From NCBI GenBank assembly GCA_965601925.1, contig OZ271854.1, forward strand, positions 4,096,001 through 4,160,000: a DNA stretch of 64,000 nt, in the 5' to 3' direction. Source of the stretch: Alkalispirochaeta sp. (GTDB lineage: Bacteria; Spirochaetota; Spirochaetia; DSM-27196; Alkalispirochaetaceae). The stretch's first letter is position 1; every line of letters starts with the position of its first letter. Positions 21,001-30,000 of the stretch are shown here, piece by piece. Position numbers: made by a program.

Positions 21001-24000
21001 GACGACGGTGGCGGAGCAGGCGGCTATCGTCGCCGACTTTGTGTCGAATCCGACAAAGGCGATGTTCGTCGCCGTCGAAGAGGGCTCGCCGGAGATCGGA
21101 GGCTACATCGTGGGGATCGGCGGCGAGCACGCGAGGAACGTACACACTCTCTGGTGCGCCGTCGGCGTCCGCCGGGTCGTCTCGGGGCGAGGTGTCGGCA
21201 CACGGCTTCTACATAGTCTGGAGTCGTAGGCCCGGGAGCGCGCCTTTCACCGCATCGAGCTCACGGTAATGGAGCACAACGAGCGAGCGGTAGCGCTGTA
21301 CACTCGCTGCGGCTTCGAGAAGGAGGGTGTCAAGCGCGACTGCCTACTAATCGACGGCGCCTTTGTGAACGAGCTCTACATGGCCAAGCTGCTATCGGAG
21401 CGATAGACCGCACGCCTCTCGGTCATGGAGGCGTCCGGCCGTCGATCGCGGGGCGACTATGACAAGCCTTCAAAGTAGTCGAGCAGATCGGATCGCGAAT
21501 AGGTGTAGGTCTCTTGAAGGTCACCATCGTTGTCGTACCGCTCCACTGCCAGTTCGAGTACGTTCGGCTGAATCCGCTGCTCCAGATAGTCCGCCAGTGC
21601 ATCCGGATCCTCGAACATCGCCTCGGTGATCGAGATCGTCTCGTCGTCGCCGAATCCGAAACTAGCGATGAAGTTACCGGTCGGATCGCTGCTCAAAGAC
21701 GAATCGACCGAAATCGCAAGCAGGATAATGGCCGAAGTCGCGTACGCCGCGTCGATCTGTATAGGGACCCCGTCGACGTCGTATGTCGGTACGATCTCCA
21801 GATTGGCGTTCACCGCCATGGCAAGCTTGGCCGCGGGCACGAAGACATCTTCCAACCCGTTCCGCGCGTCGCTCACCGTAACGATTACTTCGCCGAGACT
21901 CGCCTCCAGATCGACTCTTCGGAACGCCCCGGCGTCTCCGATATTCTCGTCCCACGCGATGCTCGCTTGGGCGTCGGCGCTCCCGGAGACAGAGATCGTT
22001 CCGGTGTTTCCCGTCCCGTCGGCGAAATCGAGCGTCTCGTCGGTAAGCGATCCGGTGACGCCGATCGACTCAGGAATATCCTGGAGATCGAATAGATCCT
22101 CAGGCGTTACGGTGAACTGCCCGCTCGTCGGCTCCCATTCGTCGTTTGCGCTTAGAAAGTCGCCGACGTTGAGGCCGATTAACCCGACCCCGGCGATAAT
22201 CGCGTCGAGCACCTCGTTTTTGCCCGTCGGCGGCGTCCCGCCGGCGACCGTTCCGAGATCGCTCGGGTCCACCGTCTCGGTAAGCGTCACCTCGCCGACG
22301 CCGTCGACACTCGGTCCGGTCGAGGCGTCCCCGTTCGTCGGATTGTCACACGCGATCAACAGTGCGACAACCATCGCTGCGATCGTGACGATCCCAAACC
22401 ACGTTCTTCGCATAGTGAGCCCCCGGTTCGTCGTTCCGTGTGTTAATAGGGAGTATACCATACGGATGCCGATCGCGGGTCGTGAACCCGTACGCACAAC
22501 AGCTCGTTAGGCGGCGGCGACCGCTTCGTCGATCGGCGTTGGGCCTTCCCACAGTTCCAGCGTCGCGCCGACGGTGTTCTCGTGCGTAAGCACCGCCACC
22601 AGCGTACGCGCCACGATGCACGCCGTCCTTCCGTGTACCCCTGCAATTAAAACGGTCATGTATCCTCCCTCGGTCAACGTCGATACCGATCCGTCCGACG
22701 CACCACGCTTCTGCGACGCCGCTCACGTCGAAGTCGCCGACGGCGTAACAAACATCCTCAATGCGGAGGCGGGAGTATAGGAAAATTCCGAGAGGACGGC
22801 GTGCTCATGCTCACGTAGAACTGGTACTCCTCGCGGGCGTGAAGCGGGAACGCCTCCTCGTCTCCGGCGGCGAAACGGTGCGCCTCAAAGATGATATCGT
22901 GATGGCGGTGTGCGTCTACCGACGAATAGGCGTATTCCATCTTCCTCGCCACGCTCTCGGTTGACGATGCGCCCCTCGGGAACCGTAATGTTCTCCGGTC
23001 CGCCGATCATCGTCGCATCGATCGCGTTGGTTATCGGAGGAGCGATCGCCGGCGCCCCCATCTGGTGGCTGGTACTCAATCCTTTGGTCGCGCTTACGGT
23101 GCCGCCGGTGGTAGGGCGCGGTTTACCGGCTCCCCTGGGCGGCTATGTCCTCACTGCGGGCGGCAGTTTAGGATTTGCGGTGTTCGGTCTCGCAACGATG
23201 CTTATCGTGTAGTTCCTTGCGGTCCGAGACGGGTTTTTCCGTCATGCACGTAATCCCTACGATACAGTCGGCTATTTGGCGATGTATGTACCTATAGAGG
23301 TCGGCGAGGATCGATTCGGCTTCCGTCCCGGAGTTCTACAAGTACCGTTAGGCGCAGACGAGGCGGCTGGAATCATAGTACCGCGTCAGCTTAAAGCGGC
23401 GGGTTCGCCGGAACCGGCGGCTGTCTTCAAGTTCGCAATCATACTTTGACTGCGCTTGCTCATCATGCGCATCAGCGTCAGCGCTTTTTCAGAATCTTCC
23501 ACAAATCGTTTCAGGAAAACATCTCTCGTCATCACCATCATTTGCACGTCGGTTTTGGCTACAACATCGGCGCTGCGACATTCGTCGGTGATTATCGCCA
23601 GCTCGCCGAACATTTCACCGGGTTCCAGCGTAGCGAAAACGTGCTGATTCTCCGGTAATCGTACTTCGGCTATACCATCGATAATGATAAAGGCCTCGTT
23701 ACCCTTGTCTCCCGCTCTGACGATGTGTTCACCGGCCTTACAAAACCATCTTTGATAGTCCATGATGAAATCATACATTTGATTTTTCTTAATAAAATTA
23801 ATGAAATAATCCTTCAAATCATTTATATCAAGAAGTAAAGGTAGTACCTGGTAATCCAGGTGAGGATCGTGAAATTGATCGCCCACCTGTTCAAACCCGA
23901 TACGTCTTAGCAACGGAGCGATGGCAGGGTTAATGGGGGCGACCACATGAGTAACGTTATGGGAAATGGCATAGTAGCCGGCCATCAGGATCAAACCCAT

Positions 24001-27000: not shown

Positions 27001-30000
27001 AGCCCGAAGAGGACCATCGCGATGACCGCAGGCCAGGAGAGCGTCCACATGACCCTCCAGAGATTATCCGTAAGGATGAAGGTTCTTCGCGCCGTTTGAT
27101 CCATGTCGTGCTCCTTTCAACCGCCGCCTTCCAAGGTCGTTTCGGGCGGCATAATTTTATTAATCAAAATATATTATTTGATTAATAAAAACAACAGGCT
27201 TATGTTCACCGGGAAATCGGTAGCACGCTCTACGCGCTTCCCGGCTCGGTACACCGCCCCGGCGCCTGCAGCAGCGCGTTTGCGTTTCATCGGATGTCGC
27301 GGTAGCATACAACGCGTCAATCCTGAGGAGGTGTGTTGTGATAGACACAGATGCGGTCATGGGTGTGTTCAAACAGATCAAACCGCTATTCCTCGAGCAC
27401 GAGGGCAATTTTGAGGTGCTCGATATTTTCGACGACGGCGACGTACGCGTGAAGCTCATCGGCCAATGTTAGATGTGCATGTACAAAGAGAAGACCGTCC
27501 GAGCCCTTGAAAAGATGCTGGTCGCCGCCAACGCCGGCGTCACGACGATGGAAGCGGAGTAGTCTCTCCGCCGCGGCGCCGACGAAATGAGTCGCGCCGT
27601 GTGAAGCGCGAAAGAGTAAGATCGTGGAACGCTACCGAGACGTCATAGACCTCCTCCCCCTCTTCGCCGAGGAAAACGGCGATATCGACGCCGTCGTGGT
27701 GGTCGGCTCGCAGAGTCGCCGCGAAACTCCCGCCGACAAGTACTCCGACCTCGATCTGGTTTTCTTCTGTGACGCGCCGCGAACGTATCTCGATGAGACT
27801 GCGTGGCTCGACCGGTTCGGAGAGGTCGTGTGCACGTTTACCGAGCCGACCGTCGGCGGCCACAAAGAGCGACGCGTGCTCTACCGCGACAACCGCGACA
27901 TCGATATTACCGTGCTCCCGGCGTTCGATACGTGCCGACGCGATCTACTCGGCAACCCGGACATCGTAGAGATAGTACGGACGGGATATCGCGTTGTATA
28001 CGATCGAACCGCGGCCGTAGAGGTCGCGTTCGAGAGTACCGTGTCCGTCGGGGTAAAGGAGTCGCATCCTCCCGTGTCGTACGACGACCTGGATCGATTG
28101 CTGAGCGATTTTAACTATCACATCGTATGGGCCGCGAAGAAGTTGCTACGAGGCGAACTGTTGACCGCCGTCTCTTGCATTAACAGCTATCTTGTTCCGC
28201 GTCTCCTTCGGATGCTCTCACACTACCACGCCGCCCGAAACGAGAGGGGGTATCGTCGATACGGTCGGTTCATCGATGCGAACATGCCTGAGGGGCTCAG
28301 AGAGGAGCTTGCGCGCTGCTTCTCACGGTACGACCGCGAGGAGGCGTATCGCACCTTGTATCCATTGTTCGATTTCTTCAATCGGTTGGCTCGGAGTACA
28401 TACGACTGCGCCGGCTATCCTTTTCCCGAGATCCAACACGTGGAGATCCGACGCCTTCTCTCGACACTGGACCGAACACGGGACTGAGAGGGTCCGTCTA
28501 CCGGCGGATCACCTCCGTACGCCGAGTCGATCCGTGCCCGACGCCTCGCGGGAACGTACCGCCGCACGATCGAGCGCTGCAAGCAGGATAAAGATCACCG
28601 CCGCACTCGCGGATAGGATCGCGGTAAGCGGCCACACGTCGCGCACCGAAAAGCGCTCGATAAAAGTACCGATCAACAGCGGTCCCAGCGCAAACCCGGC
28701 GCCCGCAATGATCGGAACGAGGGCGTTCATGCGGCCGCGATGACCGACGGGGGTGTGGTCTGCGACGTACACATCGACGTTGGTCGCCGATAGGATCTCG
28801 CCGGCGGTCCAGACCAACGCGGTCACGACGAACATCGCGGCCGACGCGACGAAGTAAATACTACCCATTCCGACGAGGTAGAGCCCGGCGGCCAACGCCA
28901 GGCAGAGAATAGGTCGCAGCCGTTTTGTCGCGGCAATAATGGGTGCGGTGCAAAACACCACGACCAAGGCGTTCGTGGTCATCACCACACCGTACATGAC
29001 CGGACCCGCATCGCCGAGTATCGCATTCATCTGTAGGGGCAAGCCGAACGTGTACTGCGAATAGACCAGAGTCATGAGTACGTTGGTGAGCATGAAGGCC
29101 AGCACGATGGGGCGGCGCAACAGCACGGCGAGCACGCCACCGGTCTCGGCGGCCTCTCGGGGTTGCTCCCGTCCCACGCGCGCCACCTCGGCGCGATCGG
29201 GCCTCGTCTCGCGGATAAAGGCTACGATTAGGACCATCGCCACAATTGAGGTGGCGGCGTCGCCCCAGAACAGTACGCGCAAATCGCGCCGAAAGAGCAG
29301 GCCCGCCAAAAGCGGACCGACGGAGAATCCGATGTTGTGGCCGAGATATGTTAGCGAGTAAGCCGCCTTGCGATTCTCCGGGGTGGTGATGTCGGCGGTA
29401 AGCGCGCGAAGCGTGGGATGGATGAGGCCACTTGAGAACTCGGCGGCGAAGATGAACCACGGCAGTATCGCGACGTTACCGCTCATCCCCCAGGCGACGA
29501 ATGCCGCGATGCCGATTGCGAACCCGCCGACAACTACGCGCTTGCGTCCGAAGGTGTCTGCGATCCTGCCGCCGATAATCGACCCCGGGACAAAACTCGC
29601 CGTCGCAATCGTAACGATACGCCCTGCTTCGGCCGCGTTCAGTCCGCCGCGCTCGGTGAGAATGAGTGTGAGAAACGGTAGGACAAAGTGACCGAGACTG
29701 TTCACTACCTGAGCGACGAACAGTACGTAGACTGCACGCGGCAATCCGCGGTAAATCGCGAAGCTCCGGCGGAGCGGATTGAGAATCGAAGACATGGGTC
29801 GCCATTATAGACGACCGGGGACGCGGTGTCGCCCCGAACCTCGGGGCGGTGGGCCGGCGATCCGGCGCCCTTCACGCGAGATATACCACCTTCTCGGTCA
29901 TGTAAAACTCGCGCGCCGTCGGACCGATCGAGTAGGCACCGAAGCCGCTCTCCTTCACACCGCCGAATGGGACGTGAGCCTGGCTCGCCGTCCCGTGGTT

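What a model noticed while it worked through the whole genome (the two positions that open the first line are those of the whole stretch)
23386..27104. N-acyl amino acid (FeeM-type) synthase fused to a cyclic-nucleotide-binding domain, with methyltransferase and MATE expo [...]
g03731 (315 aa) joins a FeeM/LuxI-like N-acyl amino acid synthase domain to a C-terminal cNMP-binding domain and stands on the same strand next to a leucine-carboxyl-type SAM methyltransferase and, after a gap, a MATE exporter. I read the three genes as a cAMP-gated module that makes, methyl-esterifies and exports an N-acyl amino acid signal or antibiotic, taken up by this spirochaete from marine gammaproteobacteria. 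New would be a lipid-signal synthase switched directly by a second messenger; the family has no studied member.
Evidence so far: pfam.tsv: FeeM 17-169 (E 1e-25), Autoind_synth 11-150 (E 3.5e-6), Acetyltransf_5 20-114, cNMP_binding 198-275 (E 2.6e-20); g03732 LCM 68-200; g03733 MatE x2. relatives.tsv: FeeM in 1 of 16 genomes of the genus, 6 of 98 of the order (floors). Homologue search, near length: 28 proteins E<1e-3 among 1,066 candidates, 25 of them (this one included) 302-327 aa with FeeM+cNMP_binding; the named ones are Planctobacterium marinum (75% identity), Saccharobesus litoralis (55%), Pseudoalteromonas (53%) and an unnamed gammaproteobacterium (43%), labelled only 'FeeM domain-containing' or 'cyclic nucleotide-binding domain-containing'. 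The genome has 14 cyclase-domain genes and 19 cNMP-binding proteins.
(Added by a program. Inside this text positions count along the whole contig: contig position 4,096,001 is position 1 of the stretch shown here. "Call 12" and the like, gene names such as g00115 and contig names such as C1 are that model's own, and its searches are not shown. The text may have been shortened before it was handed on; [...] marks where a part breaks off. The agent that wrote the report below was given it as the finding of a first reader that could run no searches.)

Follow-up and report, generated by a model that had tools for sequence, protein, structure and literature searches.

The report
Nucleotide-gated lipoamino-acid synthase with methyltransferase
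Two foreign-looking genes travel together among marine bacteria and probably attach a fatty acid to an amino acid and cap it as a methyl ester when cyclic nucleotides rise; the cAMP switch itself was already described, the neighbouring exporter is not part of the unit, and the pair is a candidate for a known class of marine molecules whose genes are unknown.

Summary
The three genes are real, but the unit is two genes, and the claimed novelty is already in print.

Confirmed: a FeeM-fold domain plus an intact cNMP pocket, and a conserved LCM methyltransferase directly upstream in 44 of 62 related loci. The MATE is beside 0 of 62. The pair is a low-GC block (23379-25324) nested among Alteromonadaceae copies.

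New here: (1) the family lacks FeeM's catalytic Glu (His95; Glu in 0 of 184 sequences). (2) The same methyltransferase clade also sits beside Glu-keeping N-acyl synthases and beside a fatty-acyl-ligase/one-module NRPS, which points to an N-acyl amino acid as its substrate.

Best reading (0.45): cNMP-gated synthesis of an N-acyl amino acid methyl ester, a marine metabolite class with no known genes. No link to the known producers was found. Main rival: a catalytically dead sensor domain. This scan noted the same cassette on other DNA before.

The parts
23386..24333 (-). FeeM-fold acyltransferase (1-~180) fused to a cyclic-nucleotide-binding domain (~190-307); His95 at the FeeM Glu95 position; phosphate-binding cassette G243-E244...R253-S254 intact
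24343..25239 (-). LCM-family (TIGR00027) SAM methyltransferase of a clade that sits beside acyl-amide-forming enzymes
24334..24342 (-). 9-nt spacer with AGGAG ribosome-binding site overlapping the methyltransferase stop codon
   Evidence: sequence
23379..25324 (.). Low-GC two-gene block (GC 0.47-0.48, GC3 0.47-0.51 against genome GC 0.60); about 91% identical copies in runs of two other studies run into unlike DNA at 23379 (X5, X6) and 25324 (X5)
25725..27104 (-). MATE transporter; neighbour only, not part of the unit (GC 0.58, GC3 0.75; one of five MATE matches in the genome)
27155..27190 (.). Perfect 14-bp inverted repeat with 8-nt spacer upstream of the MATE; operator-like, suggests separate control of the MATE (inference)

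Best explanation
A mobile two-gene operon for a small lipid. Step 1 (inferred): cAMP or cGMP binds the C-terminal domain and switches on the N-terminal FeeM-fold domain. Step 2 (inferred): that domain moves a fatty acyl group from host acyl-ACP onto the amine of an amino acid, without the usual general-base Glu. Step 3 (inferred): the LCM enzyme uses SAM to turn the carboxyl group into a methyl ester, giving a neutral N-acyl amino acid methyl ester that needs no dedicated exporter. The order of steps 2 and 3 is open. Shown here: the domains, the fold, the intact pocket, the missing Glu, the conserved pairing, the foreign origin and the exclusion of the MATE. Not shown: any activity, the ligand, the amino acid, the chain length.
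For: Fold: best match FeeM 2g0b (Foldseek E 2e-12; VIA Z 20.1, rmsd 2.8, 173 aligned, ahead of AHL synthases at Z 18). FeeM motifs around GLP.D and INP are kept; a CoA-binding loop is present in only 7 of 184, as expected for carrier-protein-dependent GNATs (PMC11685415 passages). cNMP pocket intact in 156 of 184; 9 of the 18 loci without the methyltransferase have a CHASE2 cyclase within 2.5 kb upstream. Pairing: 23 of 34 genome loci and 21 of 28 metagenome loci; in reverse 56 of the 80 kept methyltransferase loci carry a FeeM-like gene, in both gene orders. The same methyltransferase clade adjoins a synthase above the TIGR03694 cut-off (L173), Glu-keeping synthases of Campylobacterota, and overlaps by 4 nt a 1988-aa fatty-acyl-AMP-ligase/ACP/C/A/T/TE protein (L293), an unrelated route to the same product class. 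[quoted passage not shown]
Against: The Glu shown essential in Nas354 and in ChoA is absent and its column is variable (S81 H49 N18 G12 others), so nothing conserved replaces it. The same two-domain unit is fused to a histidine kinase, a GGDEF domain or a weak HTH-like tail in relatives, as input modules are. By sequence FeeM itself scores only E 0.3 against the family profile, below AHL synthases. 18 of 62 loci lack the methyltransferase (3 of them too short to tell) and 24 of 80 methyltransferase loci lack a FeeM-like gene. Loci are not independent (several Oceanospirillum, Thalassospira, Pseudoalteromonas; duplicates such as L049/L088). No Roseovarius or Loktanella was among the listed loci.
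Confidence: 0.45

Rival explanations
1. The FeeM-like domain is a dead enzyme used as a ligand-binding or regulatory module. Together with the cNMP domain it integrates a lipid and a second messenger and controls a partner or fused output; the methyltransferase makes or inactivates the ligand.
For: Glu in 0 of 184; fusions to HisKA/HATPase (P0054), GGDEF (P0103) and a ~100-aa HTH-like tail in the 400-aa group.
Against: This 315-aa form has no output domain; Glu-less forms without cNMP domain also sit beside the methyltransferase (L163, L172, L180); a P450 fusion exists (P0090); the partner slot is filled elsewhere by evident synthases; R21, D45, R66 are nearly or fully invariant.
Confidence: 0.2
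2. It is a cNMP-gated acyl-amide synthase, but the chemistry differs: the acceptor is another amine (or SAM, as in LuxI), or the methyl goes on a phenol or a fatty acid instead of the amino-acid carboxyl.
For: LuxI-type N-terminal residues are kept and AHL synthases are the best sequence hits and second fold hits; no solved close relative of the methyltransferase (best E 2e-10); more distant methyltransferases pair with FAD oxidases.
Against: FeeM is the better fold match; characterised LCM-family enzymes methylate carboxyl groups; NRPS partners release a free carboxylate (inference from the TE domain).
Confidence: 0.2
3. A protein-modifying pair: a cAMP-switched lysine acyltransferase like mycobacterial Pat, with a methyltransferase acting on a protein C-terminus like LCMT1.
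For: NCBIfam Pat hit (E 3.7e-9) and LCMT1 hits.
Against: The Pat hit covers only the cNMP part, at 36 bits against a cut-off of 460, and the domain order is reversed; no CoA loop; C-termini of the synthases are not conserved; small-molecule partners of the methyltransferase clade.
Confidence: 0.08
4. One reading: the MATE exports the product.
For: Same strand, adjacent.
Against: 0 of 62 loci; host-like GC3 0.75; shared block ends at 25324; own operator-like repeat.
Confidence: 0.05

Closest known systems
NasP (ABB76600; Clardy and Brady 2007, J Bacteriol 189:6487, PMC1951892)
   Same: N-acyl amino acid synthase directly activated by cAMP (title and one sentence in citing papers); acylates phenylalanine. 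That it carries its own cNMP-binding domain is recalled, not seen in a call.
   Different: Sequence, domain order, active-site residue and neighbours could not be compared; no protein named NasP appeared. No methyltransferase partner is mentioned in the passages seen.
[quoted passage not shown]
   Same: Fold, GLP.D and INP motifs, degenerate CoA loop. Nas343/354 also carry a fused second-messenger domain (PilZ).
   Different: Catalytic Glu absent; 18-20% identity; below the TIGR03694 cut-off (29 against 112 bits); cNMP domain; methyltransferase partner; no ACP or PEP-CTERM genes among the recurring neighbours examined.
[quoted passage not shown]
   Same: The product class predicted here; native methyl esters from marine bacteria; no candidate synthase genes as of 2024.
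   Different: The pair was found in 1 of 401 sampled genomes of the family of G104 and in named Pseudophaeobacter and Paracoccaceae records, but in no listed Roseovarius or Loktanella record; the producer strains themselves were not searched.
Mycobacterial Pat (cAMP-regulated protein lysine acetyltransferase; NF058543)
   Same: cNMP domain joined to a GNAT-fold domain.
   Different: Reverse order, match only over the cNMP part, far below cut-off.
LuxI-type AHL synthases (BjaI, RpaI, LasI, TofI)
   Same: Fold and N-terminal Arg/Asp/Asp/Arg set.
   Different: E-x-S-R strand motif lost; no LuxR among recurring neighbours examined.

Membership tests
[quoted passage not shown] | FeeM/GNAT fold and PF21926 above cut-off | tested here: met
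   89 bits against 27; 2g0b top fold hit
[quoted passage not shown] | Active-site Glu (FeeM Glu95, Nas354 Glu103) | tested here: not met
   His95 aligns to it through a bridge protein and to the Glu of the BjaI motif; Glu in 0 of 184
[quoted passage not shown] | Other conserved motifs (GLP.D region, INP region) | tested here: met
   motifs read from the 2g0b alignment, not from the paper's figure
[quoted passage not shown] | Carrier-protein donor: no canonical CoA diphosphate loop | tested here: inconclusive
   loop present in 7 of 184; consistent with ACP use, not proof
[quoted passage not shown] | Makes N-acyl amino acids | not testable with these tools
   needs expression and LC-MS
NasP-like cAMP-activated synthase | Synthase-like domain with an intact cNMP-binding domain in one chain | tested here: met
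   (NasP architecture recalled)
NasP-like cAMP-activated synthase | Sequence homology to NasP | not testable with these tools
   sequence not available in any tool; paper not held; not named among hits
NasP-like cAMP-activated synthase | Activation by cAMP specifically | tested here: inconclusive
   R253-S/T254 fits cAMP or cGMP; five neighbouring cyanobacterial cyclases have Glu at the position I recall as the GTP determinant
TIGR03694 exosortase-associated acyltransferases | Score above cut-off | tested here: not met
   29.4 against 111.95 bits
LCM / TIGR00027 methyltransferases | PF04072 and TIGR00027 above cut-off, SAM motifs conserved | tested here: met
LCM / TIGR00027 methyltransferases | Carboxyl methylation of a small molecule | not testable with these tools
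   inferred from partners and precedent
Pat-type protein acetyltransferases | N-terminal cNMP domain, C-terminal CoA-using GNAT, NF058543 cut-off | tested here: not met
LuxI-type AHL synthases | E-x-S-R motif on strand 4 | tested here: not met
   H-A-G-M here

The most novel reading that the evidence does not exclude
[quoted passage not shown] The cassette moves between phyla as a 1.9-kb unit that wires a diffusible lipid to the new host's cAMP/cGMP network.
Probability: 0.3. Interest if true: 0.68.

Novelty: new variant of a known kind. Interest (0 to 1): 0.45.

Why it matters
[quoted passage not shown] A two-gene unit present in cultured strains (Planctobacterium marinum, Oceanospirillum, Pseudovibrio, Synechococcus MIT S1220) makes that question testable with one cloning and one LC-MS run. 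It would also give a substrate class to a clade of the largely unassigned TIGR00027 methyltransferases and show whether a FeeM-fold enzyme can work without its catalytic Glu. The cAMP switch alone adds little, as NasP showed it in 2007.

Tried and rejected
NasP comparison: paper not held; not named in three homologue searches. Paper searches for this fusion or pair: 'FeeM'+'cyclic nucleotide' 0 papers (75); some searches gave only citations of NasP and context; the library lacks most subscription journals, and no supplements were read. Complex prediction of synthase with methyltransferase: no answer, not used. No RNA holder listed. Promoter/terminator scan at chance level; no IS ends or target duplications, no second copy of the flanks in the genome. 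No plasmid record with the synthase domain or a full-length methyltransferase match. Single-protein scan with the G457 methyltransferase found nothing. Five weak hits in the host's order are ~1050-aa proteins, the one I read being a histidine kinase with a Glu-keeping FeeM-like tail: not orthologues. Runs X5 and X6 have no long piece over the MATE; absence of cover is not used as evidence. 'Ester first explains the lost Glu' is kept only as an option: Glu-less proteins also occur without the methyltransferase, and the methyltransferase also pairs with Glu-keeping ones. My first idea that the insertion cut the synthase's last codons was dropped: X5 and X6 align through them. The methyltransferase tree is a quick tree with 31 of 78 branches open, so I do not count independent recruitments from it.
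Full report
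1. Observation. The three ORFs, their domains and the E-values are as stated. The methyltransferase (P0002) and the fusion protein (P0001) are 9 nt apart with a ribosome-binding site in the spacer. The MATE lies 485 nt upstream. An AlphaFold2 model from 81 sequences is confident (pLDDT 93.8, pTM 0.87). Its best solved match is FeeM 2g0b; the C-terminal part matches CRP/PKA-type domains.

2. The unit is two genes. GC and GC3 are 0.47/0.51 and 0.48/0.47 for the pair, 0.58/0.75 for the MATE, and the genome is 0.60. Of 62 related loci (34 genome; 28 metagenome), 44 have the methyltransferase directly upstream and none a MATE at blastp E<=1e-4. I left out the 39 other loci, which match only part of the protein, mostly the cNMP domain. 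The loci are not independent, but span Proteobacteria, Campylobacterota, Bacteroidota, Cyanobacteria, Verrucomicrobiota and Leptospirales. Contigs from two other studies carry a copy about 91% identical that runs into unlike DNA at 23379 (X5, X6) and 25324 (X5).

3. Origin. No orthologue was found in 98 other genomes of the host's order, many incomplete. In a quick tree of 44 proteins the window protein sits in a starred group whose named members are Planctobacterium and Paraneptunicella (Alteromonadaceae); its four closest relatives are unnamed; holding it with the two Leptospirales copies is rejected (p-AU 1.9e-5). DNA identity to Planctobacterium is 68% over both genes, with similar GC. Transfer is well supported; the donor group is likely, not shown.

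4. The cAMP switch is not new. [quoted passage not shown] I could not read the paper; its cNMP-binding domain is my recall. PMC4897644 also describes PilZ-fused synthases. Whether NasP is a member of this family is untested.

5. The sensor looks intact. G243, E244 and R253 are kept in P0001 and in 156 of 184 family sequences (set = window protein, 59 full-length locus proteins and homologues, redundant). Nine of 18 loci without the methyltransferase have a CHASE2 class III cyclase upstream; five of those have Glu where I recall the GTP determinant, so cGMP is possible. The host has 14 cyclase domains over cut-off.

6. The catalytic Glu is missing. FeeM's Glu aligns to the Glu of a Pseudovibrio protein, which aligns to His95; one search gives the same register with BjaI. 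The column holds no Glu in 184 sequences. This Glu is essential in Nas354 and in ChoA. It tells against simple FeeM membership and feeds the sensor rival, as do fusions to a kinase, GGDEF or HTH-like tail. It does not exclude activity: SbzI works without a general base on a low-pKa amine (PMC11685415, passages).

7. What the methyltransferase acts on. Searching from its side, 56 of the best 80 loci (of 279 matches) have a FeeM-like gene: 27 like this one downstream, 22 upstream (mostly a 400-aa form, also short forms without cNMP domain), 1 divergent, 5 Glu-keeping, 1 broken. A second, overlapping search gave 50 of 77, adding Glu-keeping 200-220-aa proteins in Campylobacterota. One Marinomonas partner passes the TIGR03694 cut-off. 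Eight of the 24 remaining loci have an NRPS gene nearby; seven of these were scanned (six read as C-A-T with or without TE, one is cut after C-A) plus one more. In Aestuariivita a 1988-aa fatty-acyl-AMP-ligase/ACP/C/A/T/TE protein overlaps the methyltransferase start. Unrelated enzymes that all join a fatty acid to an amino acid share this partner, so its substrate is most simply an N-acyl amino acid, and the Glu-less proteins most simply fill the same role. This is inference from gene context.

8. Candidate product. [quoted passage not shown] An LCM-domain enzyme is proposed for a terminal methyl ester in lusichelins, with StnF2 and MelK as precedents (PMC12210259, passages). Against a direct link: the pair is in 1 of 401 sampled genomes of the family of G104 and no Roseovarius or Loktanella record was listed (80 of 279 and 80 of 130 loci shown). 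Synthetic methyl esters of N-acyl tyrosine were generally inactive as antibiotics (PMC12479983, parts 1-3 of 5), so a signal or surface role, or detoxification of the acid, is more likely than an antibiotic. Also opened without bearing: PMC11511702, PMC12078418, PMC10663231 (passages).

9. Earlier scan notes describe the same cassette and related ones as unstudied; the lines shown name FeeM, not NasP. They are not evidence. The ESM Atlas has several clusters of this architecture, none with a functional name.

10. Verdict. Real, two genes, horizontally acquired; works most likely like NasP plus a methyl-ester step; not a canonical FeeM member. New variant of a known kind; interest 0.45.

Noticed in passing
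window 27155-27190: Perfect 14-bp inverted repeat with 8-nt spacer in the AT-rich stretch upstream of the MATE; operator-like.
   Followed up: no
window 27624-28487 (+): Streptomycin adenylyltransferase-family protein (PF04439, E 8e-28), divergent from the MATE, converging on an MFS transporter (28509-29795).
   Followed up: no
window 11522-17702 (-): Complete type I restriction-modification set (hsdM, hsdS, hsdR), next to a PLD-like ORF at 17868-18740.
   Followed up: no
window 47117-63989 (-): Run of mostly unannotated ORFs with strong GC skew, including a 2507-aa protein with a weak C-terminal M23 match and a 339-aa protein with an NADase_transloc F5/8-type domain; GC dips to 0.47-0.52 in parts.
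   Followed up: no
window 22910-23212 (+): 100-aa hydrophobic ORF without Pfam match, converging on the cassette; a 92% identical stretch lies on a separate contig in run X5.
   Followed up: partly
window 20876-21229 (+): Short GNAT ORF (117 aa), below cut-off, possibly truncated.
   Followed up: no
G000:C1:4093615-4094148: A class III cyclase domain lies 1.9 kb before the window start, about 25 kb from the cassette.
   Followed up: no
L049, L056, L090: Tandem duplicates of the synthase-cNMP gene behind one methyltransferase.
   Followed up: no
L190 3869-5114; L070 6001-6937; L101 2763-3591: Broken copies: both genes in pieces in a Spirochaetia MAG, a split synthase in L070, a split methyltransferase in L101.
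   Followed up: partly
L293 674-2881; L196 5961-8171; L131 2658-4895: A cNMP-binding patatin-like protein lies beside the methyltransferase (with an NRPS in L293 and L196): cNMP control may recur in the NRPS version.
   Followed up: partly
L108-L112 (G035, G024, G060, G014, G028): About 1050-aa proteins in the host's order; the one read is a histidine kinase with a C-terminal Glu-keeping FeeM-like domain.
   Followed up: partly
L195, L197, L199, L200: More distant methyltransferases are adjacent or fused to FAD-binding oxidases.
   Followed up: no
L116 185-2625: ThiF-like gene beside a canonical FeeM-type gene in Pseudovibrio, resembling described N-acyl tyrosine clusters (ThiF call from the sequence, not scanned).
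   Followed up: no
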